A DNA stretch of 64,000 bases from Takakia lepidozioides (taxonomy: Eukaryota > Plantae > Bryophyta): NCBI GenBank assembly GCA_030704615.1, contig CM060731.1, positions 89,590,001 through 89,654,000 on the forward strand, given 5' to 3'. Below, one piece after another: positions 1 to 58,840 of this stretch; the stretch's first letter is position 1, and each line of letters opens with the position of its first letter. The translations under genes and the position numbers were made by a program. A model generated the notes under the pieces. It saw only the letters and a program-made list of their open reading frames with translations. It had not been told where the DNA came from and did no database searches.

Positions 1-968
1 TCCTACCGTTTGGGTTGAAAAATGCTCCTGCAGAGTTTCAGAGGGTCATGGATAGGATTCTTGCGGGGCTAGACTTTGCCCGGTGCTACATTGATGACAT
101 CATCATCTTTAGTGCTACGATTGAGGAGCACGAGAGACACCTTCAGATGGTGTTTGAGCGCATGGGTTGAAATTGCACCCTGGGAAGTGCAAGTTATTTC
201 ACAACCAGATTGAGTATCTGGGCCACATGATATATCCTAGAGGATTGGGTATTCAAAAGATGAAGGTGGAGGCCATTGCACGCATTCCACGCCCCATCGA
301 TGTTAGCAGAGTTCGTGCTTTCATGGGATTGACAAACTACTTTCGACAGTTTGTCAAGGGATTTAGCAGCATTGGCAAGGCTCTTACCAAGTTGACCAAG
401 GTGGGTCAGGAGTGGCAGTGGGAGGAGGAGCAGGAGGAAGCCTTTGAGGAACTCAAGGCTCGATTGACTTCTGCGTCTATTCTGAGGCGGCCTATTCGGG
501 GGCGGTCTTTCCATACGGATTGGAGTATGTTGGGGATTGGAGCAGTGCTCACATAGGTGGATGATGAGGGAAGAGAATTCATAGTGACATATGCTAGCTG
601 CTCGAACAATGATGCCGAGGCGAAGTATAGTTCCTATAAAGGGGAGTGTCTAGCTGCAGTACGGGCAGTGACACATTTTAGATGCTACCTCTATGGCAAT
701 CTCTTCACCCTTGTCACGGATCACCAACCATTGAAGTGGTTGATGGAGTCAGACAAGTTTACATGGAAGCTTGCACGGTGGGCACTTATGCTTCAAGAGT
801 ACGACTTCCAGGTGGTGCATCGAGCCGGAATAGTCAACCGAGATGCGGATGATTGAGTCGCAATCCATGCACAAGTGAGCTTGATGATACATGAGCTCGT
901 TGGCATGGTGAGACGGACAAGGAGATGGTACCAGGATGGCACGTATCTGCCTTTTTATGCATTCTAGC
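1..968 (+). mobile_element. Degenerate Ty3/Gypsy pol fragment (RT C-terminus + RNase H), same family as the 9167-19652 element
   Basis: Encodes LPFGLKNAPAEFQR, YIDDII, HTDWSMLGIGAVL and LVTDHQPLKWL, collinear with 12020-13060(-). It has frameshifts and an in-frame TAG at 554-556, and is truncated at ~968. Confidence 0.93.
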
Positions 969-1069
969 AAGGGGAGCTCAACAATTTAGGAGAAAAAGTC
1001 AAACTACCCCACTGGTCGTTTAAGGGTTAAACTTAGTTGAAATGTTCATGTAACCATTAGAAATGGACC

Positions 1070-4300: not shown

Positions 4301-4684
4301 TAGCAGATGCAATTGAGCATAGGAACTAGTGTGATAAGTTGAGGTGGGTGTTTCCTAGAACAAATTTAGGCTGTCATCGTCAGCTGCTAGCAGCAAGGCA
4401 AGGATGTATGCATGATTTGGCATGGGTAGCTGAAGGAGCAGGGAAGAGGGCCAGATTTCAAGCTCCAGATTACCTATGATTCCTTGTGGATCAATAGCTA
4501 CAAGAAACCTGCATGGGTAGATGGTCAACTAAAGGCACCAGCTGCAGCACTAAGGGTCCCCTCTGTGGGCATGTAAATACAGCCCACAAAGAGGTTCTTC
4601 CTACTCACGCCGCAAGCAGGCCGCTGCCGCACCAGCAGCCAGCCACCAGCAACAGGCCCCTGCACTTGGTGAGTATTTTCAATT

Positions 4685-4820
4685 GTCCTTCACTTAATAT
4701 ACATGTTAACAAGGCATTATATCAAAATGTCTGGCTTAGATCCAGTTTGGATAATGTGAACATGAACTTGCCCACCAGCTTCCAAGCTTTCTTCCTTATG
4801 CACTCATGCAAGAGACAGCT
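4685..4820 (-). pseudogene. Second short PPR (L-motif-like) fragment in opposite orientation
   Basis: The reverse strand reads, across frameshifts, LLHECIRKKA-EAGGQVHVHIIQTGSKPDI...LVNMY. Confidence 0.55.
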
Positions 4821-4894
4821 AAGTATTGAATCTGCTGAATTGTTTCCTTGGTTTATAGGGGGCAGGGCAAAGAATCATAGGTAGTTTTGTGCTT

Positions 4895-5200
4895 GAAATG
4901 GAGCCCTCGTGGACATGTACATGCAAAATGTGGGTGCATCCGAGGATGCAAAGGGAGTGTTCGACAGTATGGCTGAACAAAATGTGGTGTCGTGGAGTGC
5001 GATGATTGCAGGATATGCACAGCAAGGGCATGGGATGGAGGCTTTGGAGACCTATGAGCAAATGATGTCCGAAGGGGTGAAGCCCAACCCGTTTGTTTGC
5101 ATTTGCAATGCATGTGCAAGCCTAGCAGCCCTGGGAACGGGCAAAGAGGTCCATGGTGACATCGTCAAATCTGGAATTGTACCCGATGTCATTCTGAACA
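4895..5200 (+). pseudogene. PLS-class pentatricopeptide repeat (PPR) gene fragment inside CACTA
   Basis: ALVDMY..EDAKGVFDSMAEQNVVSWSAMIAGYAQQGHGMEALETYEQMMSEGVKPN..CNACASLAALGTGKEVHGDIVKSG is a typical S-P-L motif run. It is truncated and frameshifted. Confidence 0.88.
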
Positions 5201-6348
5201 TTGTCCTGGTGATACAGGGTGATGAATTACTTGTGTCATCAAGTTTTGAAATACAGGGTGATGAACTTTTTGACTTGGTTCTTTCCTCTGATTCTTGTCT
5301 ATGAATAAAAGCATTGATTTGCACAGTCATTTCTTGTCACTTTGTTCTTTCCTGTGAATCTTTCCTGTGAATGAGGTTCCTTTGATTCATTGTGACATCT
5401 TGATGACCAGTAGTTGCTACGCTTGGGTGGGTCATGTGGGTTACTGCAGTCAGTAGTTAGATTCACTATAGCAGTCCAAGTGCAGATTACAAAAAGACGC
5501 TTGCACTACTAGGGTTCTACTATATAAGCATTATCACTTTAACACCACTAAACAACCTGCAATCATACATTGACACATGTCATATCCAATAGAAAACACT
5601 TGGCATAGTCTTGGTTTTGACTGTTAAATACATTTAAAATTTCAAAACAAACCCATTATATGATGCCACGTGTCCAGATATTAGCTTGTTTGTAGTCAGG
5701 AGAATGACTGCAGGACCTCCTCATGAGATGCCACGTGTCAATTCCTGCGAGTGCCATATGGCGCACATCCAAAAATCTCCCGGAATTATTAAAAAGAGAC
5801 ACGTGTACAGTTTGCAGCACTAAGTCAAATATGGTAGAAGTACATATGACTGCCAAATGACAGTGAGATGTATCACTTCGCTCATCTGACTCCAGTCATC
5901 CATGACCGACCATCCTGTACTCATTGTATTCACTTGGTTTGCACGACTTGCAGTCATAGCAGTCATATGTACCGTTTATGACTACAAGATAGTCATATAT
6001 ACAGTCATAAATACCGCGATCTGTTGTAGTGATATTCGCTTCGACACTTCAATCATCGCAACACTCTTTTGTAGCACCTATACATGTTCGCTTCAACACG
6101 TCAATCAACGCAACACTCATTTGTAGCACTTATACATATCACTCATACATAGCACTTAGGCCAATGTTGTTAAAACCATTAGTTACGTGTTGGAATTGAA
6201 ACCTTTATATTATCCAAACGACACAACATATATCAAATTCGATTTCAACACCTCAAAATAAAATTCAATTCCAGAATTTATTCGCAACACTTAATATTTA
6301 TTAATACTGACACCTAGGTCAAAACATCAAAACATTAGAGAAAAGAAA

Positions 6349-7091: not shown

Positions 7092-9166
7092 CACTACAGC
7101 AAATGGGGGGGTTTGCGACGCCAGCCGCGCCCCCACGCCGAGCCCGCGGCGCTTTTTTCAAACGCTCCGGCGTCGCAATCCCTTGCTGCGACACAATTAC
7201 GACGCCCAGCCGTCGTAAGGTGGCATGAAGGGGGAAAGAAGGCCCTCGCTGCGACGGATTTTTTTTCTTGCGACACCCCGGCGTCGGAATTTTGTTTTTT
7301 ATTTTTTATTTTTTTGGACGTTGCGACGCCTCGGCGTCGCAAAAGCGTCACTAAGGGCGCCCCAGCGCCTTTGCGACGCCAGGTCGTCGCAATAGCATCA
7401 CCACAGTGGAAGTTTGTTTTTGTTTGTTTTTTTTTTTGGGCTTTGCGGCCCTCAATTTCACAAAAGCGTCGCTGGGGGCGCCCCGCGCTGGGACGCTTTG
7501 AAATACTGGCTCTAATGAGGTGTGCTCTCTGTGGTCTGAAGGAGCCGAGGTATTTTTACCATAGCTGATTTCCAGTGGAATTGTCACCCATCATCTTGAT
7601 CTCTCCATGTATCCTTATCTCTGATGTTCTAAAGTCGACCAACCACTGTCCACTCTGAAAGTCAGAGCCAAGAGTGACAACAAAGATGAAAACTTTCGGG
7701 AGTTCAAGCATAGCTTTGCAATGGACGGTGGTGAAGTCAGAGGACATGCATGGGGTTGAAGCACAAATGGCAGCAGGATGGCGAATGCAATCCGCCGCAA
7801 AATGTGTCTCTATTTCTTGGCAGTTTGATAATTTGATTGCCAAATAATCGCTGCGTATATCAACAAGGATGTTGTGGAGGTACTTTTGCGTTGATTTTAC
7901 TTCATGGCTACAGCTTGTGGGCTCTCTGATGATTGTCTATGTCAATCGATAGATACAAGATTCCAAGTTCGGTTCTTGTGATGTTCAGCGATGTTGGAGT
8001 GCAAGAAGCTCGACTACAGGATCAATGAACTGGAGTTTGGCATTGTGAATGTGAGGGCCTAGGATGCGAAGAACTGTCTTCAGGAATAAAAGATCATGCA
8101 TGATTCAGAACGTGAGGAATCTTACACCTGTTTGCAATTTCTTAAGCACTGTGATGCGAGGTGCTCGGAATGTTTTGCAGGGGAAAGAAAATGATATCTT
8201 ATTCATGTTAGGGGAATTGAAGTGAAGCACTGCAGGTCTCTGCAGGGGTAGTGGTGGGGTTGGCCATTGTTGGCTTTGCCATTTGGTATGGTCGGCGAAG
8301 AAAGCCCTGTTGGTTATGAGACTATGCATAGATTTGTACATACTTCTTGGTAGCAGTAGTGATGGCTAGATCAGGCATGTCTCATAGGCCAGTTGCAATT
8401 TATTTAGATGGTGAGCTTGGAGAAAGTACATGAGATAACATCAAAGCTGTTTCTCCATCTGTTGGTGTATGGTTCCAATTAGCCATTGGATACCATGCAG
8501 TCTCGTTCGCAATTCTTATCTCGTTGAAGCGTGTCTCTCCATTCTGAAGCATTGGAGCTCACATGACAGGAGGGCAGTAAACATGCTACCCATTCAAAAC
8601 CATGAATGGCTTAGATACTGCGAAGGATGCTGGGTAGTTCCAATCGCATGATCCTCCAAAGAGATTCAAACCATACACACCATGTTATATACTGTTATGA
8701 GTTGCATTATGTTATGTGGATGTAGATTGCCTCCACTCGCTCTATGTTTGCATAGAGGAAAAAAAAAAAAAAAAAAAAAACATACTTTGCAATGTAGAAT
8801 TAGCACCATTCGGGGGTCGCAAAGTGCGACGCCCAGACGTCACAATTTAAGGGGGTACATTTGAATTTAGGCGGGAAAATTTGAATTTGAAATTTGAATT
8901 TCAAAAACTTGTTGACCATTGACTCCGGTTCTGTCTAATGGCAATGTGTTCATTGTTCTACATATATCATGCAATGCATACTTAAACCTAAGACCTCCAC
9001 GTTATAACATTTCTAAGGCACTACAAACTAACCAACACACCTACACTACATCTATGTATCACAAAAACAATCTAAATATATAAATATATATATATATATA
9101 TATAAAGATTTTCTTCAAGTTCTTTCAAGTTCTTTCTAAGGGGGTCTCTCTTGTGACGCCGGGGAG
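7092..9166. mobile_element. Second CACTA element, main body (other terminus at 10258-10443, inverted)
   Basis: Terminus CACTACAGCAAATGGGGGGG at 7092 with dense TGCGACGCC subterminal repeats, preceded by CTG (CAG on the minus strand). The interior is degenerate and unassignable. Confidence 0.85.
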
Positions 9167-9410
9167 TTGCAACCTCCACAGCCTAAGTGCCCAGCCCCAG
9201 CCCCAGCCAGCGTCATTGCCGTTGTTGCACTTCCCACCGCCAGGATTGCAAGACGGCGACTAACGATGGGGTTGCTCTTGTACCCGGCCTCTTGGTCTAT
9301 AGAGTTTGAGTACAATAGGGACAGTGATAGAGGACTTAGTACGGCTGTGGCTATTACATTTTGTAGCTATCTGGAGTTAGAGGGACCTAACCACCAGCTA
9401 GGGGGGCGAT

Positions 9411-9495
9411 TGTGGTATAGCTTTCTAGGATTGTGTGCTTAGATTGTGTGGTGGACATCGATGTATGTTGTGGCACGATGCTTAGGTGCACGACA
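9411..9495 (+). repeat. 85-bp terminal repeat X, copy 1 (directly after the polypurine tract)
   Basis: TGTGGTATAG...GCACGACA, with 2 mismatches to 9899-9983. Follows AGGGGGGCGAT. Confidence 0.95.
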
Positions 9496-9497
9496 GC

Positions 9498-9897
9498 TGT
9501 CATGGTTTTAGTCATGGTTATCTAGAATTACCTACTTCTAGTTAACTAGGACATTTTAGATATTTATATTTATATTTTGTGTGTTGGGACTTCATTTGGT
9601 CTCACATGCCAAGTGAGGTGTCGAGCCTCACTTGAGACATGGAGATAGGTTTTCCCCTTGTGAGTGTTGAGGAGGTTCATCTTCTTGTAGTTGAGCCTCC
9701 ATGAGCTTCTCTCACCTCCATAGCTCTAGAGGGTTTTGTAGGGTTGATTCCTTTAGCAAAGGTGCCCTTGGCTTGACTTAGATTATCTGATAGAGTGGAT
9801 TTCACTGGGAAGGACTAGGGCTTGTTCTTCATGTGATTGCTTCATGCTTTGAGAGCTTTCATTGTCTTCTACTTCTCTCATTTCTCATTTCTTATCA
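9498..9897 (+). repeat. 3' LTR segment A (400 bp)
   Basis: Matches the reverse complement of 19233-19652. Confidence 0.95.
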
Positions 9898-9898
9898 T

Positions 9899-9983
9899 TG
9901 TGGTATAGCTTTCTAGGATTGTGTGCTTAGATTGTGTGGTGGACAGCGATGTATGTTGTGGCACGATGCTTAGGTGCATGACA
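9899..9983 (+). repeat. 85-bp terminal repeat X, copy 2 (element terminus)
   Basis: TGTGGTATAG...GCATGACA followed by the TSD AAGA. Confidence 0.95.
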
Positions 9984-10064
9984 AAGATTATAATTATTCA
10001 TCTTGTGTTACAATAGAGCGAAGTCCTTGGAGAATTAATTCACATCATGAATATATAATGTTAA

Positions 10065-10257
10065 CTACAATATCCAAATACACATCACATAATGCAACCC
10101 AGACAAAGACATTATGCATGGTCCCCCCCTCATATGCCCCAACCCAACAAAATCCAACATCTACACAATCAACGGTAGTTTTGTCGGGTCTATCTCCAAC
10201 ACGCGGCTTACTTGGCTCTGGTACAAATACTCCACCTCCACCACACATATTAACCAG
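10065..10257 (+). pseudogene. N-terminal continuation of the PCIF1-like relic, displaced by inversion
   Basis: CNPDKDI..NIYTINGSFVGSISNTRLTWLWYKYSTSTTHINQ joins in frame to QLQPPKQDF (7091 down) through the shared CAG target-site duplication of the CACTA. Confidence 0.7.
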
Positions 10258-10443
10258 CACTACATGAAAAGGGGAGGGGTTTTCGACGTCGCGGCGTCGT
10301 AAAACAGCCCTTTTCAGGCAGGGGGGAAGAACCAAATTTGCGACGCCCGGGCGTCGCAAGCCCGTCGCAAGGGCGTCGCCAAAAAAACGTCGCAAATTTG
10401 CAACCAATGGAGATCGCAACGGCGTCGCCACAGGGGGTCGCAA
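10258..10443. mobile_element. Second CACTA element, displaced opposite terminus
   Basis: CACTACATGAAAAGGGG at 10258 preceded by CAG, with the same TGCGACGCC/GGCGTCGCAA subterminal repeats. Confidence 0.85.
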
Positions 10444-10536
10444 TGGTGTTGTGGTCAGCTTAGGTCATCACAAGGATGTCACTTGGGGCTTGGCCTTGCA
10501 TTTCTTGTTAGCCTTCCATGGTTGTATCCACTCCTA

Positions 10537-13500
10537 CTATCCAATGCAATGCGGACATAACCAATCCCCATCAGGAACCATCTCAAGAGGTGGAGTCAAG
10601 CATCCCATATGCCAACCTCTAGAGCATTGATCACACACCAGCATGGTGGTTGCCCTTCTAGCAGACCCACACAACATGCACCTCAAACATGCAGGTACCA
10701 CTGCCAGGTTTGGGTCAACCCTTCCATCAACATTTGGAAGGTGACATGGCGCGCAATTACGCACATGGTCCTTCCAAATCATGCCATCTCGACCCTCCAA
10801 GATCAGGACTCCTGAGGGCAACACCTCTCGAACCCTCAAAATAGTACGTCCTGCAGTCACATCCAAGGTCGTAGGAGCAGTTTGTTGCAGATAAACATAG
10901 TCACCAAGGTTAAATCTCCGAACCCCAGGACGATAGCCCCCACCACGTATGGTAGCATACCTCAACGTATCACGATGTTGTGCAATGACAAGGTTCTCGA
11001 AAGCCATGGGCATGACTTTCTTGAACAACTCTGCACGCTGATCACATGTACGTGCCCACATGTCCGGATCGTCAAGGTTGAGAACTGTAGTAGCTTCTCT
11101 ACGAATGGATGCAGACAAATCCGGCTCTCGGCCAAAGAGAAGAAAATATGGTGAGAAGGAGGCAAGTGATGCTTGCTTGCTAAACTTGTAGCCCATGGCT
11201 AACCAAGGTAACTGAAGGTCCCAATCTCCTAGGTGTCCCTTCTGCAAGCCATATTTGCGCAAACCCCTCTTCACTGTCTGAACAACCTTCTCTGCCAAGC
11301 CATCGGCCTCAGGATGATCCCGAGAAGTGGTGCGGTGGTCTACCAAGGCCTTGTCACACAATGCCTGAAACTCCCCCAAGAACTCTCTCCCTTGGTCCGT
11401 GAGTACCTCAGCTGGAGCACCGAATCGGCTAAGTACACAATCCAAGAATGTATACGCAGCTCCCTCACTAGCCTTATCACGCAATGGAACCAACTCGATC
11501 CACTTGGAGAAGTGCTCCACCATCACCAACACGTATTTGTTGTGGCGCATGGTCAGTGGCAACGGCCCTGCGAAGTCAAGACTCCACCTGTAGCCCAATC
11601 CCATGATCGGAAGAGGGTGCAATTGTGGAGTAGGGGCGTTGAATGAAGCATGCACCCTGTCACACACCATGCACCTAGCCACAAATTGTTGCACCTCTGT
11701 GTGCATACCAGGCCACCAATACTGCCCATGCAGTAGACTATGAGTGCGTCGCACCCCAAAATGCCCCAACTCCTCATGGGCATGCCGCACTAACCGTGCC
11801 CGCTGTGTTGGGTGAGGCACAATCCTCACTCGATCAACCTCCCACACTCGGAGCAGGTGTGTCCCCTCCCACTTGAACCTCTTGGCTCGTTGTAGGATCC
11901 GATCCATCTCCTTGGCAGTCACAGTGGCTGCCGTGTCTCCAGTGCGGAGGTAGTCCAACACAGCTGAATCCTCATGTATATCTTTGGCGCCACCTTGCTC
12001 ATTGCTGGCCTCAGGGTCCTCAGACACTCGGTCTACAGTCATCCCTGTTGTAGGTCCAACCTGGCCTTCCGCTGCCAAGATACACAGAAATGCAGATGCA
12101 TGCCATCCGGGCACCATCTCCTCGTCCGTCTCACCATGCCACCGAGCTCCAGTATCATTCTGCTGGCTCGTGCATGGATTGCGACTCAACCCATCTGCAT
12201 TCCGATTGACCAAACCCGGTCGATGCACAACCTGAAAGTCATACTCTTGAATGATGAGTGCCCACCATGCAAGCTTCCCCGTAAGCTTGTCTAACTCCAT
12301 CAACCACTTGAGTGGTTGGTGATCCGTTATAAGGGTGAAGAGATTGCCGTATAGAAAGCACCTAAAGTGTGCCACGGCCCACACTACAGCTAAGCATTCT
12401 CCCTCATATGAGCTATACTTAGACTCTGCAGCGTTGTTCAAGCGGCTAGCATAAGCCACTACGAACTCTCTTCCCTCATCATCCACCTGTGTGAGCACCG
12501 CTCCAAGCCCCAGCATGCTCCAATCTGTATGCAGCTGAAAAGGACGCCCCCTGATAGGTCGTCTCAAGATGGGTGCCGAGGTCAACCTCGCCTTGAGCTC
12601 TTGAAAAGCTTGTTCTTGCTCATCTTCCCACTGCCACTCCTGGTCCACCTTGGTCAGTTTGGTTAGAGCTTTTGCAATGGCACTAAATCCCTTAACAAAC
12701 CATCTATAATAGTTTGCTAACCCCATGAAAGCTCGAACTCGGCTCACATCCGTGGGGCGTGGAATCTGTGCAATGGACTCTACCTTAGTCTGCTGTACCC
12801 CCAATCCTCCAGGATATATCATGTGACCCAGATACTCAATTTGGTTGTAGAAAACTTGCACTTCCTCGGATGTAACTTCAATCCGTGCGCCCTCAAGCGC
12901 TCAAATATCACCTGAAGGTGTCTCTCATGCTCCTCCACCGTAGCACTAAAGATAATGATGTCATTTATGTAGCACTGAGCAAACTCCACCCCTGCTAGAA
13001 TCTTGTCCATGACTCTCAGAAACTCTGCTGGAGCGTTCTTAAGCCCAAATGGTAAGAACCGCCACTGGTATAGGCAATCCTTCCTGTGCTCATTGATCCC
13101 CCAGAATGTCGTCTTCTGCTTATCCGCCTCCTTGATCGGCAACTGGTGATATCCGGATCGTAAATCCAAAGTGCTAAAGACCTTGGCATGCCCAATGACA
13201 TCAAAGATCTCTTCTGGTGTCGGCATGACATACCTATCGGACTTGGTCTGACGATTTCCAGGCCGGTAATTACCGCATATACGTCTCTCCGTCCAATTGC
13301 CATAGACATCATTCTTGGCTGGCATCACTGTGGCTGAAGCATACTCTCCCCCAGATAGCTCCACCAAACCAGCCTCCCAAAGGTCCTGAGTTCTCATCTG
13401 AATCAAGGACCTCTCCATGTCACTGTATCTATAGGGTCTCCGAAAGATTGGCGTGTCAGTAGCCAATTCAATGCGAATCTCTTGACCCTTCAGTGCTCCT

Positions 13501-13544
13501 AAGTCCTTCAAATTGAAGGCAAAGCAGTTCCTGTAAGCCCTCAA
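10537..13544 (-). pseudogene. Gypsy RT - RNase H - integrase - PHD finger
   Basis: RT: FSTLDLRSGYHQL, PFGLKNAP, YINDI (YIDD mutated). RH: HTDWS, TDHQPL. INT: HEELGH..CMVC, SLDFAG, LTDQG, GLAEK. C-terminal C4HC3 PHD CMLC..CDQC..H..C..WLCPHC. One frameshift at ~12850. Confidence 0.95.
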
Positions 13545-13984
13545 GAACCGCCGTATACGTCGTCTTTCTCCTCCGGTGACTATAGGTCCAACATTAGGCT
13601 CCCAGTTGTCCTCCGTGACTGCAACCTTGAGTCCAGCAGGCTTAGAGGTAGAAGACGCGTCCCGTGGTTGCTATGCTGCAACCTCTTGAGCAGTGACCAC
13701 TGCCTTCTCTGTCAGTGACAATGTCTCATCCTACCCCATCATCCCATCCTTGAGGACCTCCTCAACCCGAGAAAAATCCCCAACCTCATCCATCACGGCC
13801 GCCTTGGCTGCCAACTCATTTTGAACCTCGAGCACCTCCCACGTGTGCCATAGATATGGCCTGCACCTTGTGGTCCTCATCTGTTCGCCCCCACTCGCTG
13901 CCTGTACCGTCTCGGTAGGTAGGGAGACCATCAAGGGAAGTGTACTCTGTACTCTGCGCTGCTCAGCCATAGCCAAGCTGATAA

Positions 13985-14920
13985 TCCAGGTCAAGCAATT
14001 GAGATCCATTGCTTGCCCCAACACCTGACGACGTGATGCCTCAGAAAGAGATGGCACCGCCATGGTACCAGTGGTGAAACCCATTGCCCGTTCGCGCTCG
14101 TCAGCATTGGGCTCCACTGACTGCTCCAACTGGCTATCCCACAAGAGGCCAGGTCCACCATCCCGGAAAGCATGAGATCCTGGAAAGCTGAGCAGTGTAG
14201 GCAATGCTGCTCGTGGGTGACCCACCTTATTGACCACTGCCAAAGGTGATCGGTCATCGTGTCTCACACGCTAAGACTGCCTCCCTATGTCCAAAATGCT
14301 ATCCACCGTCAAGTGGCCGCTGCACCCCATCAAATGCACGCTTGAGCAATGCAGGTGGCATCAAGTTGGTCCACCATAGTCGTGGGCGATGAGCCCGTGA
14401 CCCCACTGCAACTGCATCCAGCAACACTGTTGACCCAAGCCAAGACCGCACTTGATGTACACTGGCCATCACCTTGGCCCGAGAATCACCCATCAATGGC
14501 ACATTCTCCAAGATATATGCCGGAGAGTCTGTCTGCTGAAGCTGTAAATAGCGCAGGACCCTCAACATCTCCCAAAACAGGCGTGACTTTGAGTCTTGTA
14601 ACCCATTGCCATACCCAGCTGATGAAAGCCCTTGGCAGGGCCAACCTGCCACTACTAAGTGAATAGGGCCAACCCGCTCCAAATCATGCGCCCCCAGCAA
14701 GGAGATGTCTGCTGGCAAGGCTTGTTGGTATCCACAAACTGCAGACACTGGCAACAAATCAGGGTACTGCTGCACCAACTGAGCAACATGGCGTAGTGAG
14801 ATACGTCGTGCAGTCTCATCCCTCTCCACATATAGGTAAAGTCGAACTCGTACACCTGCCTACAGCACTGCAGCCAATCCAGTGTTAATCCCGCCAAACA
14901 AGTCTAGAAGGCATATGCCT
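13985..14920 (-). pseudogene. C5 cytosine DNA methyltransferase domain within the Gypsy polyprotein
   Basis: Motif I LLDLFGGINTG, motif IV VAGWPCQGLS (catalytic PC), motif VI ILENV, motif VIII HRPRLWWTN, and motifs IX/X ERERAMGF...VLGQAMD, all in canonical order. Two TAG stops and one frameshift. Confidence 0.93.
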
Positions 14921-15200
14921 TCATCCGGGCACTACCACAAAAGAGGTGTGATGTCCAATGGCGACAACTGAGGTGGTCGTGGTGCAATCACCGCACTCTC
15001 CTCCTCTCCTGACGGTACAAAGGCCTCTACCTAGGTTGTTGCACCCGTCTATCAGCAGCCTGCTGCAAATCCTTGCTCGTACCCCACAATGGAGTGTGAG
15101 CAACCATGGCAGACAACTGCGCCGTACCATGCATGTCATCCTGCTCTGCTGGAGGTGGCACATCCTCTGCATGGGCATTGCCATCCAGCAACTCTCCAAG

Positions 15201-17903
15201 TTAACTAACTGCAGCTGTGAAGGCTGCTAGTGTTGGCATCTTGCTCCGTTGGGCAGCAGCAACACCCCCAATGAATGTCACAAGAAGTTGTACACGCCGA
15301 CCATCCCCTGACTGCCATCCAGGCCTGTAGGATGCCGACTCCTCCCAAAAATCCAGGGTGAAGCCCATGGGATACAACACTGCCCCACCAACGAGGACAT
15401 CGTAAGAGACCGCTTCTGCCACAATGGCCTTGGCTCGCATCACTGAGCCATCTATAGGATGATCCGGCTGTAGTCTAATGGCCAACTCACGCCGTGTCAT
15501 GCCCCGAGCCTGCTCTGATCCTCCCAGAGATGTCTGTATCTGTAAGGGACAAGGCTCCATATCCGCCTCCATGAGGCCCAAACCTGCAATAGCGGCTTTG
15601 CCCAACATCAGTGGCTGAGCTCCCAAGTCCAACAAGACCCGCAGTGGCCGGTACCTCTTGCCTGCCGCTCCACTCAAAGAGAAAATGCCATCCTGGTTGT
15701 CTAACAAGACAACTCGAGGTGTCACCATGGCGCGCTCAAAGGCTGGCCTAGCTGGCAGCTCCGTCAACCTGGCAGCTGCAGCTTGCCATGGCGCAGTCGT
15801 GGCAGTCTTGACCCTCAAATCCGAGGATCTCTCTGCCACTACACCTTCCACTAACTCCGCAGAAGATGAAGTGACCTCCCCACTCTCACAGAGTGTTGCT
15901 GCTAGTCTGAACACTACAGCTGGTCTTACCCCCGGCGTCGCAATCATGGTTGCCGAGAACAGTGGGGCCTGACACACAGAGGTGGCCGCCCCCAACAACA
16001 CACTGGCTGCACTAGCCTTGGCAGCAGGTGTCAGTGCTGCACGTGTAGCTCTTCCCAATGGCACAATAACCTTCGCCTCGGTATCCGTGGGGCGAGAATT
16101 AGGTGCCATGGATGTCGTCGACACTGTCTCCGCCAAGATGAATGATTGAGGCAACCTAGCCTGACGGCTTGCCTCCCCACGTTGTGAATCCAACTCCACC
16201 TCTGCACCTCGTGGCTCAGGAACTCGTGCTGCTCCTCGAGTGATGGCTGCAGCAGACTCCACCTGCACTAGTGGTAGTGCTGCCCCACACATAAATCCCA
16301 TGTCTCCTCCGTCAGGATGACGCTGCTGAGGAGGAACAGGAGGTGGACCCTCAGGTCTTGGAGCAGGTACCACCTGAGCTGTGGCCATGGCAGCGAGCCT
16401 TTGCTCTAGCTGCTGAAGCCGGTTGGCCATACCTTGGTCAACGCCCTGACCTCCACGTCCTTGGCCATACTGTGCTGCACCTCGTCCTGCACCTCGTGCC
16501 TGAGCACCTCGTCCTCTTTGAGGTGCTCCACCTCGCCCTCGGCCACCATTGTTCCCTTGGAACTGGCCTCGCCGCAACTCAGGGTGCAAGTCATAACACC
16601 GGGCATCTCCATGCCCATACTTGCCACAATGCCCACACTATAACTGTGCAGGCTGTGCTTGTGCCGGCCCTTTGCCACTTTCTGGGCAATCTTTCTTGAC
16701 ATGAGGTCCTCCACATGTCCAACATACCACCCCTGGTTGCTGTTGGCCTGCAAAAGAAGATACTGGCCTCTACACCTGAGGTCCCATGTAAGCTCCATGG
16801 AATTTGGGTTGGGCAACCTTGCCCCCCTGACCACGCTATTGGGCAGTCCCTTGTACCTGTTGGCTGGCAGCTGCGCCTCGTGCAGACATGTCCTTGCCAA
16901 ATCCAATGGTAACAACTCACTCCTCCACCATGTTGAGCTCAATCCGCTCAGCCAGCAGAAACACATCCGCTAATGTGGGTTGGGCCGCTTGTAACAGGGT
17001 TGCATCCCGCACCCTTCTCCTGAGCTCCTTGTCCAAAATTCCATACTAGAACTGGACTGCCTGAGCTTCAGTAACCCTTTGGGTCACACTTATCAAGCGC
17101 CTCATACGAGTGTAGGCCTCTCGCAAGCTATCACTGGATTTGCGCTGGAAGTCTTGCAAACTTCGCAGCTTCTCTGTCCGTACACCTTGGTAGTTCCTCC
17201 GCAACTCCTGGAAGAACTCCACCACTGGGTTGAATCTAGGCACATGTGTTGTAGTCGTGGCAGGAGGAGTAGTAGCACCTTTTGAACTGGTACCACCTGC
17301 AGAAGTACGGACACTACTTGTTCCACTACTAGTGCTTGTAGTTGGAGATGTTTGTATAGCTGCTGGTGTCACCGCTGCCCTTGTGCCTCTAGTAATTGAG
17401 ACATAGTTAGGTGACCAATACTCTCTCACTCCTCAATCTCCACCGCATGTCCCCGCCTAAATTCATGGTAATCATCCATGGGCGGCCCCTCAAGGTGCTG
17501 GAATAACCCCTTCCACGCCATAAAGGGCGTAAACAGTTGTGGATTGCGTATTTGCTGCAAATCATACCAACTGTCAAACTCTTGTATAAAGTCATCAAGC
17601 TCGATGGTGCCCACAGCTCCAGAGTACCTACGTGGCCCCTTGGTAGCTCCATACATCTCCTCCATCGTGTCCCACAACAATGGCACGGAAATGACTTGCA
17701 CCCTCGGCAAGAATCCTCCTGACTCCGAGTCTGAACCTTCCTTAGAAGACACTGAAGGTGAAAGTGGCCTAAACCGCACACCTCGTCTTGTGTACCCACT
17801 AGTATCGCTGGTGCTCGTACCGGCACTCCCCTCAGCAGCTGGTGGCACCTCCGTGATGAAAACTCACAACCCAATCGGTTGTCAACCTGTCTCTAATCCC
17901 CAT
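15201..17903 (-). pseudogene. Gypsy gag (two zinc knuckles) and aspartic protease
   Basis: Capsid-like ELDDFIQEFDSW and FQRKSSDSLREAYTRM. Knuckles CWTCGGPHVKKDC and CGHCGKYGHGDARC. Protease site VLLDLGAQ. Several stops and frameshifts; the start is uncertain. Confidence 0.85.
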
Positions 17904-19220
17904 TTTCTAACAGAGGTATAGTCTGAGCATACACTACTAGGGTTTGTAATGAAGAGCTAGAATGCAAGTCCTTGACTTCTATGCTTCTACTCAAGCAAAA
18001 ATATGGTCTCTAGGTGGTCATAAGAGGGATCTTCTTGCTCTCTTCCACCCCAATGTGCAACCAAGAGTGGTCCAACTCAACTTGCAAGTCATTGTCCACC
18101 AAATCAATCCCCCTTCTAGTCCTTGGGATTTGATTGCAAACTACCATATCTCCATTGCCGAGCAATCATGCATTTGTCTCCTCATCACTTGACAATTGCT
18201 CCAAATCAACACAAATTATCTTAATGTGTAGGAGCAATGCTTGTCACTTACAATAATGCTCCCAAGCAATCCGCCTTGGATCCCACTCTCACGCCATATG
18301 CCTCATTTGGGGTCTCGCACCAATCCATCATCCATGTGCTCCCCGTGGTCATTTGAATGCATGTTCCATGACCTCTTGGCCTATGTGTTGCTCTCCTTTA
18401 TCATAACATGAATCAACACCTCTCCACTTCACACACAAATGGATCTCAAAAGCCTTCACCTCTTCCTAGTTCAAGAGCTCCCTTTCTCAAACTTGAACTT
18501 ACAAACTTAAGCGAGCATGCTCCACACATGCACCACTTGCTTGGTCAACTATCCACCACAAAGCTCGCACTACCAAGAGCATGAATAGCCAAGTATTGCC
18601 TCCCCCTCTTACATTACATAGTTAGGGTGAAGCTATGCATACATTGAATGATGATTTCCCTTCAAGGATTTCCCACCACATGTTCTCCAAGCCCTTCCAA
18701 TGGCACCCTAAGCTTGGCTCCACACCACCATGATTGGAAGATTTCTTCACATGCTCCCTTTCAAAACCTCTTGAGCTTCTTAGTGCTCTCCAAGTGCTTG
18801 CCCTTGTTGTCTTCAAGCCCAAACATATATAGCTCATTGGCTTTTCTTCCACAACATCCACACTTTGAACTTGCTTAACCCTAGCTTGATAGTGAAATGA
18901 GCACTAACAAGCCTTTAGTCACTCTCCACAAGCCATGGCGCACACCATCGACTCCATAATGCATATAAATGATTCTCAAACCCTAGAATCCATGCTTCCA
19001 CACACATAAGACTTCCTCCTTACAATCCTTGCAAAATCTTGTGACTCAAGAGCTTTCTTCTCAAGCTCTCCAACTCTTTGGTGCATGCAATACTCGAGCA
19101 CCTTTCCTTGCAACCCCTTGCAAGCCTTGTGATACAAGAGCTAAATTCTCCTAGCTCTCAACCTCTTTAAAATACAGTGCAAAACTAATCCTTACAGTCC
19201 GCACTCACAAGCATAAGGTG

Positions 19221-19232
19221 ATCTTCTTGTAG
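19221..19232 (-). promoter_or_regulatory. Putative self-priming primer-binding site
   Basis: CTACAAGAAGAT lies immediately 3' of the 5' LTR and is perfectly complementary to ATCTTCTTGTAG inside the LTR (19461-19472). It lacks the TGG of a canonical tRNA PBS. Confidence 0.7.
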
Positions 19233-19652
19233 TGATAAGAGATGAGAAATGAGAGAAGTAGAAGACAATGAAAGCTCTCAAAGCATGAAGCAATCACTTG
19301 AAGAACAAGCCCTAGTCCTTCCAAGTGAAATCCACTCTATCACATAAACTAAGTCAAGCCAAGGGCACCTTTGCTAAAGGAATCCACCCTACAAAGCCCT
19401 CAACACACTCCCTCTCAATACCTAGAGCTATGGAGGTGAGAGAAGCTCATGGAGGCTCAACTACAAGAAGATGAGCCTCCTCAACACTCACAAGGGGAAA
19501 ACCTATCTCCATGTCTCAAGTGAGGCTCGACACCTCACTTGGCATGTGAGACCAAATGAAGTCCCAACACACAAAATATAAATATAAATATCTAAAATGT
19601 CTAGTTAACTAGAAGTAGGTAATTCTAGATAACCATGACTAAAACCATGACA
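19233..19652 (-). repeat. 5' LTR segment A (420 bp, TGTCATGG...CTTATCA)
   Basis: Near-identical reverse complement of 9498-9897 apart from a ~21-bp indel and scattered substitutions. TG...CA ends. Confidence 0.95.
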
Positions 19653-22600
19653 TCTTTCAAAGAAATTTGAGATTGTGGATATGCATGAGATCCGCTATTA
19701 TTTCGAGTTCTAGCTATCTTGTGTTTTTATTTGAACAAATGTAAATATCCTAGATTTGGAAACAATGAGCAGTGGACATGTACAAGACTAGATATCGTAT
19801 AAGCTAAAGTTGGGGTAGTAGTTCATTCAAGTGAAAAGAGACAACACCCACATCGGAAGAGGCTCCTATCTATCCTAGCTTCAGCTAACGTCATATATAT
19901 ATACTATGGTGATGACAGATCAATTGTATTATGAGATTTTAGGAGATAGGGTTTAGGATTTAAGCAAAAGTATCAATGACAAAAAAATATGCAAGAGTAT
20001 TTATGACCTTGTCAGTGTTTGCAACGACACCCATTTTCGGAGCTTTTCGGACGTTCATGACCACCCAAATTCAAATTGAGAGATTTTGAGGGTCTAAAAG
20101 ATCTAAGTGCGTCCTACGACAGCTGGTGGATGAAGTTTCTACCTACCAATTGAAAATGGATAATATCTTTCGTCATCCGTGAATAATTGGATATTCCATC
20201 CATCAATGTTTTATTGTTTTTCTATATAAAAACTTTCAATCCAATATCCCAACCACTCTATTGTACCCCAAAGCTGACTTCTTGATGCTCGAGCTAATTG
20301 TACCATTTGTCAGCAAGAAATATATTCAGATATTGTGACTATCATGGTGACTCATCAATATTTTTAGTCCAATATACATCATGATAGCCACTGACATTTG
20401 TGATGTTCTGAGCAATGTTATAGACTCTATGCACCATAGCTTGGTCCAAATGACCATTATCAATACTCCATCCAAAACATAGACCAAAGTCAATTGTTGC
20501 AGATCAGCAGCCGCCTAGATCCATGATTCGGAAGAATCCTATGGACTAGTACACAATTGGATTTAGTTGTTAACCATGTCCCTACAACAAAGGAGTGGGA
20601 TATCCATCAGAAACCATATGTTAGCTCCAAACATCTCCCCCCTTAAGGACCATCAACCAAGCTCCGCTCCATATGACACCAACTTCTTGGTGCAAGTCAG
20701 AAGTATTATTGCCTGTTTTGCAAATCTACGCCATTACCTCATCCAGTCTGTTCATCAAGTCATCCGACAATTCCATGGTTGTCTGGGCCATGTTTAATTG
20801 CCTTGGATTGGGGCTCTCTTTCAAAATGCTTTGTCTCATTGCAATTGAGACATATGCTCTTTGGCATTGCTTGCTGAGACCCATCGTGTCTCCACACTTA
20901 TGATTTTCTTTTCGAGCCTCCACAGTTCTGTTCCAGGTGGGAAGTTGCCTTTAGCTTCCAATCTACATTTTTGTCACATGGCTTATCCTACTTATCCTAC
21001 TTCTCTACCGGATAGAAAGAATCACGCTCCTCTTGTGGTTCCTCTTGTGGTTCGATTCCGAACGGTTGGGCAAGACGGACAAAAGGTACAAAGACAAAAT
21101 CTGGACCGTCTATAATGTCAGAAGTTTTAGATCTAGAATTGGGCCAGTGTGATATATGTATAAAAGGGAAACTGGTACCCCAAGCGACCGCTCACAAACC
21201 AGGCCCCTAAGTTATAAATAAATAAATACACTAACACCAGTAGTAATGATAATATATGACACCTCCCCCAGGTGCATCAAGCCTGCGGTTTCATAATTTT
21301 TGGACGACAGATTGAATTTCAAGTATTTTTGTCACTGGAAATTCATGAAAAGACCCGAGTCTTTTGTAGTAACTTAGTTGCGCTCAATGCACACTGAGCC
21401 ACAGTAGTATGTATTTATGGTTCCAAGTAGGTGTTTTCCACGGAACAGTCAAAATATATCCACTTGGAGGAACCAGAGGAGTCAGAAGAGGCCGATCCAA
21501 AGGGAAGCAGCCTGCAGAGAAGCACTGAGGTCCATGACTGTACTATATGACAGTTGCTGTATGTGAGGGAGCCTGCCTACCATCTCTTCAGTGAGGAATC
21601 TTGACTCTCTGGGGATACCACTCCTGGCTACTCTATTCACTCCATGTCAACTGCAGGTAGAAAAAGATACAAGCCACCTGGATAAATAAGTCCACCATAG
21701 CTCTCACCTGGGTTGTATGGAGCATACAAGAGAGGAGAGGGAACGGGCTTGGGAAGAGCACGACATCGCCAAAGCCTTGTGGTTGTAGTATAGAAACCAA
21801 CTCTGAGATTACCGAAAGCCCCCTAGTGATGGAATGGAGAGTGTATTAGGAAGATGTGTATGTGGAGCTGCCTACATGGGCATTGTAGTGCCAGAGGTGC
21901 TACTGATCCTTTCCAATCTGTCTTGCACTCACAGAAAGCATTGGATGGAAGGGGCATGCATTAACCTTCCTAACATAGGTGTAGTGTTAGCCTTTCCATC
22001 TATTGACATGGAGAGAAGAATCTTTAGTGTGCCGGTTGTCTAAGACAGTTGTTTTAAGGAATACTGTTCACCGCAGGCCATTTTGCTGTGCGAAGTCATT
22101 CAACAAAATAAAAAAAGGAAAGGTGTTGCTATAGTTGCACGGGAGGGAGACAAAAGGGCAGGAACAAAGTTATCCATCTGTGTAACAGCTACAGAGGGTT
22201 GATGACCAGTTGATCGATGGTAGTCCAAACTTGCAAGTAGGAGAAGTCTCAAATGAAATGCTAGCATAGATATATCACTCACTAGATATCCCTGGCATAG
22301 TTTTTCGAGGCAGTTTAGGATTCCCAGTTTGCTAGGTTCTCAATTTCATATATGATCTTTCTAAGCATTATCCCTAATGCACATTACACCTACTCATGCA
22401 AGAGCTGAAGGCGACAAAGACCTATATGAGGTCATGGAGAATCATTTTTGCTGGTTTCCTGATGCCTGCAAATTTAGGTGGCATGTGCTCTTGGTAGAGT
22501 GTGTTCAAAGCCTAAACAGATGACCAAAAACTCCTTGGTTATGCTACAAAATGTCCTGGCAAGCTCTGCCTTAATTGCTTCTCTTTGGATCTGGAGCTTC

Positions 22601-25373: not shown

Positions 25374-28300
25374 TCAATGCACTATGTAAACAAGATCGCC
25401 TGCTACCAGGACGTCAGTGGGAACAGGGTTAGTGTAGACATAAGAGACAATGGAGCCATTAGTACCCACGGGCCGATAGAGGCCTAAAGCCAATGCATTG
25501 TCATTGTGTAGCATACCCACGAACAGCTCTTTAAATGTCCGGCCCACATAATACTTGGGTACTGCCAATTGATCAAGCTTTCGCACCACTATCGGTTTAC
25601 TGAATTCATCTGCCTCCGGAATAGTGCCTCCCCAGATCAACTGATCCACTATGGTCACTGTCTGACGGTTGTAGAAAGTTGAATACCTGCAAAAAAAAGA
25701 AAAACAAGGGTGTTGTGAATGGAAAGATTTTATTGTAACATTGAAATGAACTAGTCCAAAGCAACAACCAAAACCACTCACATTAGGACTCCAAGAGCTG
25801 CAGGACAAAATCCTTTCCCCTCGATGTAAGCAGCTGCAAACTGGAAGGTGGCTGCCCGGTGGCGGCGGTACATCTCATTGTCAAAAAGGCGCCGATCAAA
25901 TGTCCATGTGGGCTGCAAGTACGGAATTTCTGTCTCTTCCCGCAATTCTACTGAAACACGGCCCCTTGATGGACGCAGCAGCCGCTCCACCTGGCATGTC
26001 AGACCAAGTCCATGGATTCACTAAAGCAGAAGATGGTCAGAGTTAATCACAAGCCCACCTAGTTTCAAAGCACTTCCATCATACTGCACACTTTAACACA
26101 TCTTAGGTCCTACCTGCTGTTATGCTACGGATGCAATGACAAGAATGATCTGTGAGGATGACAACAGTAATTTAAAACTTCAAAAAATTGTCCCAACAAA
26201 GATGGAGAGTACTTGAGATAGAGCCACGTGTGTTGGTAGCACAAAACGTTGGCAATCTGCGTTTTTGAACTGACTTGTAGATGCTGACATTGCTTCTGTG
26301 AGTGACAACAGCTCCCCAGACTTTTTGACTATCTAAGTGGGATATACAAGTACCAAAACCTTTGCAGAATGTGACAGACCAGATTTCACAAACAGCAACC
26401 GTGCACTCTCTCGAGACAATCAGAAGGAATTTTCTCAGTTTCAACCTGCAGTCTATTGCATGTCTGTAACAAAGTTGAGTAAAAAGGCATAGCTACCGTT
26501 GCCGCGATAAGCACATTGTTCACGTCGAGTGTAAATAATTTCAATGAAGGTGTTAGGTGGTCATCATCACTCGCAATCTCCAGCACTGGTTGCTCTATCT
26601 CGAAGCCCTGGGTCAATATCACCACCTTCTCTGCTACAACATACACATTCCACTGAGGATGTAACTGCGAGGAAAAACAGGCGACTCAGCATCCTGCCTA
26701 GCCCAAGAATGGAAGTTGAGGAGTACCTGAGAACTGCTACACTGGACAAGCAAATTGTGTTGGTAACTTCTACGAGAGAAATCGTTCAGTACAGGGCCTA
26801 CTGTTCATACACCCATCAGCTACATAGAAGACATGATTCAATTAGAGCTTAACCGGTTGCGTCAAAACCTGCTCAAAATTTTGGGGTGAAGTATCGTGAA
26901 GAGTTCCCCCTTGCCAGCACAGAACAAAGTTGATCAATTAAAAAACTTCAAGGGACATAGATGTCTGTTTAAGGGTAAAAGAGAATAACAGATTCCTGTG
27001 GAATGAGGACGCACCTGCTTGCAGTACCCCGGCCCGCACCAAATCTAGCTCATAGATAGGACACCCTTTTACAAAATAAACGTCCTCGTAAAAGCCAACG
27101 CAGCCCCAATCAGGAGCACTGGGCTCTTTCGGGTGCAGAATTACGATTGCTGGGTTGGGCATGACAGGAGTTCGCAGAAGTGACACAAAGTAGAACAGAC
27201 TAGTGGGCCATTGGCCCTGTATACACAGCAGTACATGGGGCACCTGGAGCTTGACTACATTCAAAGTTCGTTCCTTCAGGTTTTCCTGAATTTCCTTTGC
27301 TCGTCTTTCCAGGATTGGGGGATCGGGTTTGCTGAACTTCTGAAGAGGAGGCCAGCTCATAGTCATGTTGATGGCCTCCTCTAATGAGACTACGCCTTTG
27401 ATCGCTAACCGGGGTGTATCTGAACTCTTCCTAGAACTTTCACTATCGTCTTCACCGGTAGAAGAGGTCGATATAAAATGCTGAAGGTGGTGCGTTGGCA
27501 CATTGCTTCCCCCTACAGGTTTCCCCACTGACCCAGTTAAGGACTCCCTGAACTGTGTCAGTTCGAGGTCAGAGCTTGTCATCGAAATTTTGTGGTCCAT
27601 AATATTGGTAGTCAATCCATCTTGTTTGGAAGCTGTTGGTTCACTCCTTTTGACTTGTTGCAACAGATTGTCTTCCTCTGACAGTTTTTGAAAGATTTTT
27701 TGGCGAAGACAAGGGACAAAGTGCCAACCACACCATGGGTGTAGGCTATCTTTCCCAAATTTTGACACCTGTTCAGCAGTCGGCAGGTCCTTCGCAATGG
27801 CCAAACCAACATCTGTGCCTTGTATAGCACGTCCTCTTGGATAGAGAAGCACTTCCCGCAGATTTTCTTGGTCATCAATTGAAACATCAAGACCAAACAG
27901 AATGACACTGTATCTGAGGTACACCAGTTCTGCAGCCTGTAGGAACTGTCCCATTCAGATTACCACCATACTAATCTTTTTCATTGGCTCCTTTCATCTG
28001 CTTTTGTTGAAACTTGGACTACACGATTACCCAGAGTTCTGTGCTTGTCTCAACAGCACAGGTAGCTGGAAGTTCCGAAGGTTTAAAAGTACCAGGGGGC
28101 TTAAGGAACTGAACATGTTTAGAATTCACAGATATCAGTATGGTCATTCATGAGCAACAGAGACTTAGACTGGATTTTGGGAACATATTATTCAGGCCCT
28201 ATCCTAAACTGATTTCCATCACCAACCTCTTAGTCCTGGAAGATACAAAAGCTGCAATTATATTTCGAACAGCCCAGGGCACCAGACAGTAGTAGACGGT

Positions 28301-58659: not shown

Positions 58660-58840
58660 GTGAGCTGGCATTTAGCCCAATGGTTTTCCTGCAGTTAGTA
58701 TTAAGAACTCTTTTTATCTCCTGTGCACATGTTGATCATTTTTCAAATATGGAGGAATGGTCTTGGCATTGTAAGCTACCTGCAAGAAAAGCCAGATATC
58801 GGTTAACTAATCTAAGGTTTGTGCAATTTATATAGAGAGA

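What the first reader, a model, noticed from the sequence alone, without database searches (positions are those of the whole stretch)
9400..19656. Integrase-encoding Gypsy element with split, permuted ends (A...X-A-X): signature of integration from a 2-LTR circle cut at an internal palindrome
Seen: the 5' end is segment A only (19652-19233, starts TGTCATG). The 3' end is PPT(9400-9409)-T-X(9411-9495)-GC-A(9498-9897)-T-X(9899-9983, ends CATGACA). The 4-bp TSD AAGA flanks the first A and the last X. The outer termini form a perfect 7-bp inverted repeat, and the internal X/A joint is the near-perfect palindrome CA(C/T)GACA-GC-TGTCATG. The central GC is absent at the outer ends. Established: PPT and PBS positions define the cDNA ends, so the reverse-transcribed LTR should be X-GC-A. 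The A..B-A-B split direct repeat layout is known from tyrosine-recombinase PAT/Ngaro elements, which integrate from circles. Retroviral integrases can cut palindromic LTR-LTR junctions. Inference: linear cDNA XA-internal-XA was ligated into a 2-LTR circle (the A-T-X joint keeps the extra T that follows the PPT). The DDE integrase then opened it at the att-like palindrome inside the LTR. If this holds family-wide, it is a circle-based integration route for a DDE-integrase LTR element that I do not know to be described, and standard LTR finders would mis-call its ends.
Basis: partly seen in the sequence, partly recalled or inferred. Interest (0 to 1): 0.92.

Follow-up and report, generated by a model that had tools for sequence, protein, structure and literature searches.

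The report
Gypsy clade inserting via internal palindrome
This plant jumping gene and its relatives begin and end at the two halves of a short palindrome that sits inside their end repeat, so their integrase likely cuts there after the copied DNA's true ends have been joined, which would be a route that the well-studied LTR elements do not normally use.

Summary
Real and family-wide, with one correction. A 1.28-kb local inversion (9207-10488), which also splits a CACTA element, must be undone to get A..XAX with the AAGA duplication. The element is a broken Ty3/Gypsy with DDE integrase, PHD finger and Dnmt3-like methyltransferase; no tyrosine recombinase was found. In the host species dozens of contigs leave the element at the X end or A start into unrelated flanks. 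In 80 related loci, 16 distinct insertions end X-A-X and 13-14 end in X; 5 of 7 with both ends have exact 4-bp duplications. The GACA-nn-TGTC joint and a self-priming site recur in families with otherwise unrelated repeats. No AXA..X was seen (0 of 8 5' ends), which argues against a circle cut equally at either palindrome. The repeat layout is already in print for Klebsormidium KnitGypsy-Dnmt3 (one figure legend, no mechanism). The palindrome-as-att mechanism was not found in nine literature searches; it is inferred, untested biochemically.

The parts
19653..19656 (-). 4-bp target duplication AAGA, left copy
   Evidence: pairs with 9984-9987 once 9207-10488 is inverted back
19233..19652 (-). 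5' segment A (420 nt), starts TGTCATG = right half of the palindrome
   Evidence: 20 contigs (X1) and 18 (X2) enter the family here from unrelated flanks
19461..19472 (-). 12-nt complement of the primer site inside A; predicted transcript start (self-primer)
   Evidence: role inferred from Tf1-type self-priming
19221..19232 (-). self-priming primer-binding site, directly after A
   Evidence: 10 contigs continue this way from the A end
17046..17863 (-). gag, in pieces (stops and frame breaks)
   Evidence: (Retrotrans_gag E 0.003, below cut-off)
15201..16637 (-). gag C-terminal / likely protease region
   Evidence: no Pfam hit; protease motif recognised from recall only
13731..14859 (-). Dnmt3-like C5 cytosine methyltransferase, in pieces
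   Evidence: PF00145 E 1e-10; best PDB hits DNMT3B/3A, E 5e-9
12819..13670 (-). reverse transcriptase; frame break before RNase H
   Evidence: RVT_1 E 7e-26
10537..12900 (-). open 787-aa frame: RNase H, H2C2, DDE integrase (D..D-35-E), PHD finger
   Evidence: best hit Ty3 Gag-Pol E 1.6e-19
10489..10536 (-). 3' UTR, first part, up to the inversion break
9207..10488 (.). locally inverted segment (about 1.28 kb)
10258..10488 (+). one end of a CACTA-type element in the flank, carried along by the inversion
7092..9206 (-). remainder of that CACTA-type element (inner limits approximate)
   Evidence: similar terminal repeats, CAG duplication
9207..9399 (+). 3' UTR, second part
   Evidence: matches 3' UTR of L005
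9400..9409 (+). polypurine tract
   Evidence: same tract before X in related loci
9411..9495 (+). X1 (85 nt), predicted left end of the cDNA LTR
9489..9504 (.). att-like palindrome CA(C/T)GACA-GC-TGTCATG at the X/A joint
9498..9897 (+). 3' copy of A (400 nt)
9898..9898 (+). T at the A/X joint, same base that follows the PPT; predicted cDNA end-to-end joint
   Evidence: joint present in contigs of X1 and X7, table 8
9899..9983 (+). terminal X2, ends CATGACA = left half of the palindrome
   Evidence: 42 contigs (X1) and 26 (X2) leave the family at the X end into unrelated flanks
9984..9987 (+). 4-bp target duplication AAGA, right copy

Best explanation
This is a Dnmt3/PHD-carrying Ty3/Gypsy element whose genomic copies start and stop at the halves of a palindrome inside the LTR; its self-primed cDNA is predicted to be XA-internal-XA, whose ends are likely joined into a circle that the DDE integrase likely opens at the palindrome of the upstream LTR and inserts, giving A-internal-XA-X. 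Steps: (1) shown: insertion ends at TGTCA../..GACA with 4-bp duplications, loss of the central 2 nt, PPT before X, self-complementary primer site after A; (2) inferred from standard reverse transcription: LTR = X-GC-A; (3) inferred: end-to-end joining makes the A/X joint; (4) inferred: a staggered cut after CA on both strands leaves a 2-nt 5' overhang (GC) that is trimmed at repair, as in ordinary retroviral integration; (5) inferred: the upstream palindrome is preferred, for an unknown reason; A..X copies come from X-X recombination, 1-LTR circles, double cutting or assembly collapse. Only A..XAX keeps a promoter-side A and a 3' A, so it would regenerate itself at each cycle. This copy was later broken by point changes and by a 1.28-kb inversion.
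For: Host species: loose ends behind the X end in 42 (X1), 26 (X2), 17 (X4) contigs and before the A start in 20 (X1), 18 (X2), letter agreement 0.36-0.41 = unrelated flanks (X1, X2, X4 are one sample); also 1-3 contigs in a second study (X5) and a second organism (X7, X8). Behind the A end the listed row is 10 contigs, all the primer site. Related loci: 49 of 80 show end repeats; 33 distinct 3' ends = 16 XAX, 14 X (one of them, L040, is X-joint at a contig end), 1 AX, 2 XA; one locus appears as XAX and as X and is counted under XAX. Both ends seen in 7: exact 4-bp duplications in 5, none 5 bp; chance about 1e-10. Joint GACA-nn-T(G/A)TC in 9 of 9 examples from at least 5 families with little other repeat similarity; L052 and L062 have different perfect 7-bp arms. 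Self-priming pair with different letters in 6 families. A/X joints: 2 of 11 in one family carry extra PPT-like bases, one with a short insert, as end-joining gives (read by eye). A fold-back copy (L031/L033) also stops exactly at the palindrome half. HIV-1 integrase cuts its palindromic junction after CA on both strands in vitro (PMC1905944, passages).
Against: No circle, cDNA end or cleavage was observed; all mechanism is inferred from integrated copies. 0 of 8 distinct 5' ends are AXA, including 0 of 5 X-ended elements, so a freely cut circle does not fit and an unexplained bias must be added. 2 of 7 complete elements lack an exact duplication (L032 one mismatch, L071 none). TG at the X start and CA at the A end are kept in two families, which would suit ordinary att use (but a third family ends A in TTTGA). 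L011, L052, L062 run PPT-X-A-primer site with no second X and show no element end. Loose-end tables were cut (660 and 93 rows unseen), so rare insertions ending at the cDNA ends are not excluded. Related contigs are short-read assemblies of probably few host genomes and may be mosaics (L066 A copies 79% alike against 87.5% for X).
Confidence: 0.6

Rival explanations
1. Integrate first, join later: the integrase cuts the linear cDNA at the upstream palindrome, inserts both new ends, and host repair then joins the two free cDNA ends. Same att site, no circle.
For: Gives exactly A..XAX with a 4-bp duplication; repair-like joints in L006 and L020.
Against: Should leave more damaged joints and many copies with the X piece lost or trimmed; 9 of 11 joints in one family are of exact length. 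Does not explain the lack of AXA..X either.
Confidence: 0.17
2. Reverse transcriptase makes the A/X joint: the finished plus strand jumps from the A end to the free 3' end of the minus strand and copies X; the integrase then cuts the first palindrome it meets, which is the upstream one.
For: Explains the one-sided outcome (0 AXA of 8); a single shared A lies at the joint and at the PPT end in three families; the fold-back copy L031/L033 shows the plus-strand end does switch templates.
Against: One shared base is weak; the insert at the L006 joint looks like host end-joining. End-jumping by this enzyme is recalled from other reverse transcriptases, not tested.
Confidence: 0.15
3. The true LTR is A-X with ordinary TG..CA ends, and this copy is a one-off rearrangement or assembly artefact.
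For: A-X does carry a perfect 7-bp terminal inverted repeat; this locus really is rearranged.
Against: The primer site follows A directly and the PPT precedes X in every family; 16 other insertions end X-A-X and no 5' end has A-X before the primer site; the inversion breaks lie about 200 and 500 nt from the repeats.
Confidence: 0.04
4. A PAT/Ngaro-like route through a tyrosine recombinase, own or supplied in trans.
For: Same A..B-A-B layout (PMC5890265 Fig. 1e legend; PMC7192593 Fig. 1 legend).
Against: No recombinase family in any of 54 frames of 70 aa or more across the element; D-D35-E integrase present; CA ends, 2-nt loss and 4-bp duplications of unrelated sequence are DDE hallmarks.
Confidence: 0.03

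Closest known systems
KnitGypsy-Dnmt3 of Klebsormidium nitens (PMC5890265; abstract, passages and section 9 read, figure not seen)
   Same: Gypsy pol with a Dnmt3-like methyltransferase; DIRS-like repeat layout (A-coding-B-A-B) with Gypsy domains; K. nitens integrase homologues at 51-56% identity.
   Different: The sections read give no palindrome, duplication length, priming mode or mechanism, and report it for one alga; here it is seen in a land plant, with protein homologues in Marchantia, Calypogeia, Riccia and Sphagnum.
Retroviral 2-LTR circle cleavage (HIV-1: PMC1905944 abstract and passages; PMC4372172 abstract and section list)
   Same: DDE integrase cuts a CA..TG palindrome on both strands; circles can feed integration.
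   Different: There the palindrome IS the end-to-end joint, the product has two whole LTRs and the route is a side path. Here the palindrome lies inside the LTR, 85 nt from the joint, and gives permuted ends as the normal product.
PAT/Ngaro/VIPER tyrosine-recombinase retrotransposons with split direct repeats (PMC7192593 passages; TOC1 recalled)
   Same: A..B-A-B layout; proposed circular intermediate.
   Different: Recombinase instead of DDE integrase; this element has CA ends and 4-bp duplications.
Tf1/Sushi/Tcn1 self-priming Gypsy elements (PMC6317226 passages)
   Same: No tRNA site; primer site complementary to a stretch inside the LTR.
   Different: Ordinary two-LTR ends and chromodomains there; PHD finger, methyltransferase and split ends here.
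IS3/IS911-type copy-out-paste-in insertion sequences (recalled, not looked up)
   Same: DDE enzyme opens a circle at two abutted ends separated by a few bases.
   Different: DNA transposons of bacteria; no reverse transcription; the joint is made by the transposase.

Membership tests
Ty3/Gypsy LTR retrotransposons | pol order RT-RNase H-integrase with DDE catalytic triad | tested here: met
Ty3/Gypsy LTR retrotransposons | PPT before the 3' LTR, primer site after the 5' LTR | tested here: met
   (self-priming type)
Ty3/Gypsy LTR retrotransposons | TG..CA ends with 4-6 bp target duplication | tested here: met
   4 bp here (after undoing the inversion) and in 5 of 7 relatives
Ty3/Gypsy LTR retrotransposons | two complete direct LTRs at the element ends | tested here: not met
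   A..XAX or A..X; 0 of 8 5' ends carry X. Filed as Gypsy by its proteins, as a structural variant
KnitGypsy-Dnmt3-like elements | Dnmt3-like methyltransferase within pol | tested here: met
   also in most long related loci
KnitGypsy-Dnmt3-like elements | DIRS-like A-coding-B-A-B repeats with Gypsy domains | tested here: met
KnitGypsy-Dnmt3-like elements | same clade in an RT/integrase tree | tested here: inconclusive
   K. nitens integrases 51-56% identical; no K. nitens protein among 41 methyltransferase hits (longer proteins only); no tree built
PAT/Ngaro (YR) retrotransposons | tyrosine recombinase, no DDE integrase | tested here: not met
PAT/Ngaro (YR) retrotransposons | split direct repeats | tested here: met
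Chromovirus Tcn1 / Tf1-Sushi | C-terminal chromodomain on integrase | tested here: not met
   PHD finger instead
Circle-integrating DDE elements | closed circle is the integration substrate; enzyme cuts the palindrome | not testable with these tools
   only integrated copies and contigs were available

The most novel reading that the evidence does not exclude
A whole clade of green-lineage Gypsy elements has moved its integrase attachment site from the cDNA ends into the LTR and must join its cDNA ends and be reopened there to insert: the first LTR retrotransposon lineage for which an end-joined (2-LTR-circle-like) DNA is the obligatory integration precursor, with a built-in choice of the upstream palindrome.
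Probability: 0.55. Interest if true: 0.92.

Novelty: new variant of a known kind. Interest (0 to 1): 0.8.

Why it matters
Whether 2-LTR circles are dead ends or integration precursors is an old question in retrovirology, with only side-path evidence. A natural lineage that likely uses that route as its rule, with relatives in Marchantia, gives a direct test system and an integrase that would recognise an internal 10-16 bp site. Practically, pipelines that demand two whole LTRs (such as the survey in PMC6317226) would miss or mis-bound these high-copy elements, call A-X the LTR, and misdate them. It also suggests that split repeats can arise without a tyrosine recombinase.

Tried and rejected
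No whole genome is held for the window, so copies could not be counted in the assembly. Viral contigs gave no loci. No RNA holder listed, so the transcript start was not tested. Earlier-finding look-ups by place and sequence were empty. No tRNA-type primer site; no tRNA genes in the window. Testing whether the single X of L036 is a recombinant of the two X of L024 (same flank) was inconclusive. 31 of 80 loci gave no repeat hit: 20 had under 400 nt downstream of the integrase, 4 (L009, L011, L052, L062) were other families with the same joint, 7 were interrupted or unresolved. L068, L077 and L078 were left out of the 5'-end count because the A start was not reached. Target 4-mers of 30 distinct ends show no fixed motif. 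No contig listed bridges this copy's own X2/flank or inversion breaks; the tables were cut, so this proves nothing. Literature searches found no paper on an LTR-internal att palindrome; the library lacks most subscription journals and Repbase Reports. The supplements held for PMC5890265 (3 text files) had no passage on these ends; its figures were not visible and may show more.
Full report
1. The observation. All segments lie at the stated coordinates: PPT 9400-9409, T, X1 9411-9495, GC, A 9498-9897, T, X2 9899-9983, AAGA; and A 19652-19233 preceded by AAGA. X1 and X2 differ at 2 of 85 sites, the A copies at 8 of 399 plus two indels, so both pairs have a similar age. But the two A copies are inverted repeats in the window: the 5' A and the coding frames are on the minus strand and the 3' block on the plus strand.

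2. The inversion is local and later than the insertion. Contigs from the host sample join 10489 to 9206/9207 on opposite strands, and contigs from a second study and a second organism join 10488 to 9244, one of them 5,009 nt long. A CACTA-type element in the flank is split by the same event: its ends at 10258 and 7092 have similar terminal repeats and share a CAG duplication only in the restored order, and both breaks carry AGCCCCA. The breaks lie about 200 and 500 nt from the repeats, so they do not explain the second X. Whether the inversion is real or an assembly error is open.

3. What the element encodes. Pfam gives gag (weak), C5 methyltransferase, RT, RNase H, H2C2, rve and PHD. The integrase has D..D-35-E spacing and its best solved relative is Ty3 Gag-Pol. 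The methyltransferase is closest to DNMT3B/3A. No recombinase family was found in 54 frames of 70 aa or more (7, 47). Gag, methyltransferase and RT are broken; the RNase H-integrase-PHD frame is open for 787 aa. Named homologues come from Calypogeia, Marchantia, Riccia, Sphagnum, Klebsormidium and Haematococcus.

4. Where reverse transcription sets the ends. There is no tRNA site after A. The 12 nt after A are a perfect complement of A positions 181-192, the self-priming arrangement reported for Tf1/Sushi and Tcn1 elements (PMC6317226, passages). Such a pair, with different letters, occurs in five other families; it is decayed or absent in 2 of 8 related 5' ends tested (L036, L071). The PPT precedes X in the related loci. 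By standard reverse transcription the cDNA LTR is therefore X-GC-A (inference).

5. Family-wide test in the host species. No genome was held, so public contigs were laid on the repeats. Behind the X end, 42 (X1), 26 (X2) and 17 (X4) contigs run into unrelated sequence; before the A start, 20 (X1) and 18 (X2) do; agreement 0.36-0.41 (one sample). A second study (X5) adds 3 and 1, a second organism 1 and 1. The listed row behind the A end is 10 contigs, all the primer site. The tables were cut (660 and 93 rows unseen).

6. Test across the clade. The metagenome scan kept the best 80 of 539 confirmed matches from a capped list. 49 loci show the repeats and fall into 33 distinct 3' ends: 16 PPT-X-A-X-flank, 14 PPT-X (13 with flank, one at a contig end), 1 A-X after a deletion, 2 X-A (one truncated, one fold-back). 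One insertion appears as XAX in L024 and as X in L036. Seven elements show both ends: L005 and L066 are A..XAX with AAGG and CATA; L001, L036 and L046 are A..X with TGTT, TGTG and ACTA; L032 has one mismatch and L071 no match. Five exact 4-mers of 7 has a chance near 1e-10. The joint reads GACA-nn-T(G/A)TC in 9 of 9 examples from families whose X and A are otherwise nearly unalignable, with different perfect 7-bp arms in L052 and L062. The fold-back copy L031/L033 runs X-A-primer site, then back along A, and stops exactly at the palindrome half before unrelated flank.

7. What does not fit. None of 8 distinct 5' ends is XA or AXA, including 5 elements that end in a single X. With about half of all 3' ends being XAX, a circle cut equally at either palindrome would need nearly every X-ended element to start AXA. 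So the symmetric version is not supported, unless tandem A copies collapse. L011, L052 and L062 run PPT-X-A-primer site, as a collapsed assembly or tandem copy would, and show no end. The contigs are short-read assemblies from probably few hosts and some may be mosaics.

8. Mechanism. Shown: ends at the palindrome halves, loss of the central two bases, 4-bp duplications of unrelated sequence, DDE integrase. Inferred: a staggered cut after CA on both strands, as HIV-1 integrase makes at its circle junction in vitro (PMC1905944, passages). The A/X joint needs the two cDNA ends to be joined; rolling-circle copying would give A followed by the primer site instead. In one family 9 of 11 joints are of exact length and 2 carry extra PPT-like bases, one with an insert, which looks like end-joining. 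I put a joined circle opened at the upstream palindrome at 0.6, joining after integration at 0.17 and a reverse-transcriptase end-jump at 0.15; all three share the internal att site (together about 0.9). A..XAX is the only product that keeps both a 5' A and a 3' A, so the cycle would renew itself.

9. Against the literature. De Mendoza et al. 2018 (PMC5890265; abstract, passages, section 9, text supplements searched; figures not seen) state in the Fig. 4c legend that KnitGypsy-Dnmt3 has the repeat structure of a DIRS element with Gypsy domains. The layout is thus in print, without mechanism. PMC4372172 (abstract, section list) argues that HIV-1 2-LTR circles are a reserve for integration. bioRxiv 10.64898/2026.05.21.726589 (passages) and PMC7192593 (passages) add nothing on these ends. 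Searches found no description of an LTR-internal att palindrome. An earlier AI finding of this scan in another genome (e1-9812644) reached the same reading; it is not independent support, and it named the Klebsormidium paper.

10. Verdict. A real, clade-wide structural variant of Ty3/Gypsy: layout noted once before, likely mechanism not found in print, biochemistry untested. Interest 0.8.

Noticed in passing
window 1-976 (+): Second RT/RNase H fragment of the same clade, 80% identical to 12080-13057, cut off at 976.
   Followed up: no
window 1624-6031: CACTA-type element with CACTAC..GTAGTG ends and an ATA duplication; carries a PPR gene fragment at 4897-5304.
   Followed up: partly
window 7092-9206 and 10258-10488: CACTA-type element split by the same 1.28-kb inversion; CAG duplication; AGCCCCA at both breaks.
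   Followed up: yes
window 51410-63391: Two related LINE-like RT/endonuclease fragments with 98-99% identical blocks 7.4-8.2 kb apart and a 141-nt tandem repeat.
   Followed up: no
window 26938-27954 (-): 338-aa frame with a Slo-like RCK domain hit, likely part of a host gene.
   Followed up: no
L031 3361-3878, L033 1412-1929: Fold-back copy: X-A-primer site followed by the reverse complement of A 1-180, ending at the palindrome half; suggests the plus strand copied the self-primer and folded back.
   Followed up: partly
L024 7607-8171 and L036 12252-12363: Same insertion site seen as XAX in one contig and as X in another; recombination or assembly collapse not resolved.
   Followed up: partly
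L032 216-616: Degenerate A followed by X with no internal region: a likely solo A-X, the product expected from A-A recombination.
   Followed up: no
proteins P0124-P0152: Many Marchantia gene models annotated as hypothetical proteins or methyltransferases are 51-73% identical to this element's methyltransferase piece, some fused to RT/RNase H: the methyltransferase-bearing Gypsy clade reaches land plants.
   Followed up: no
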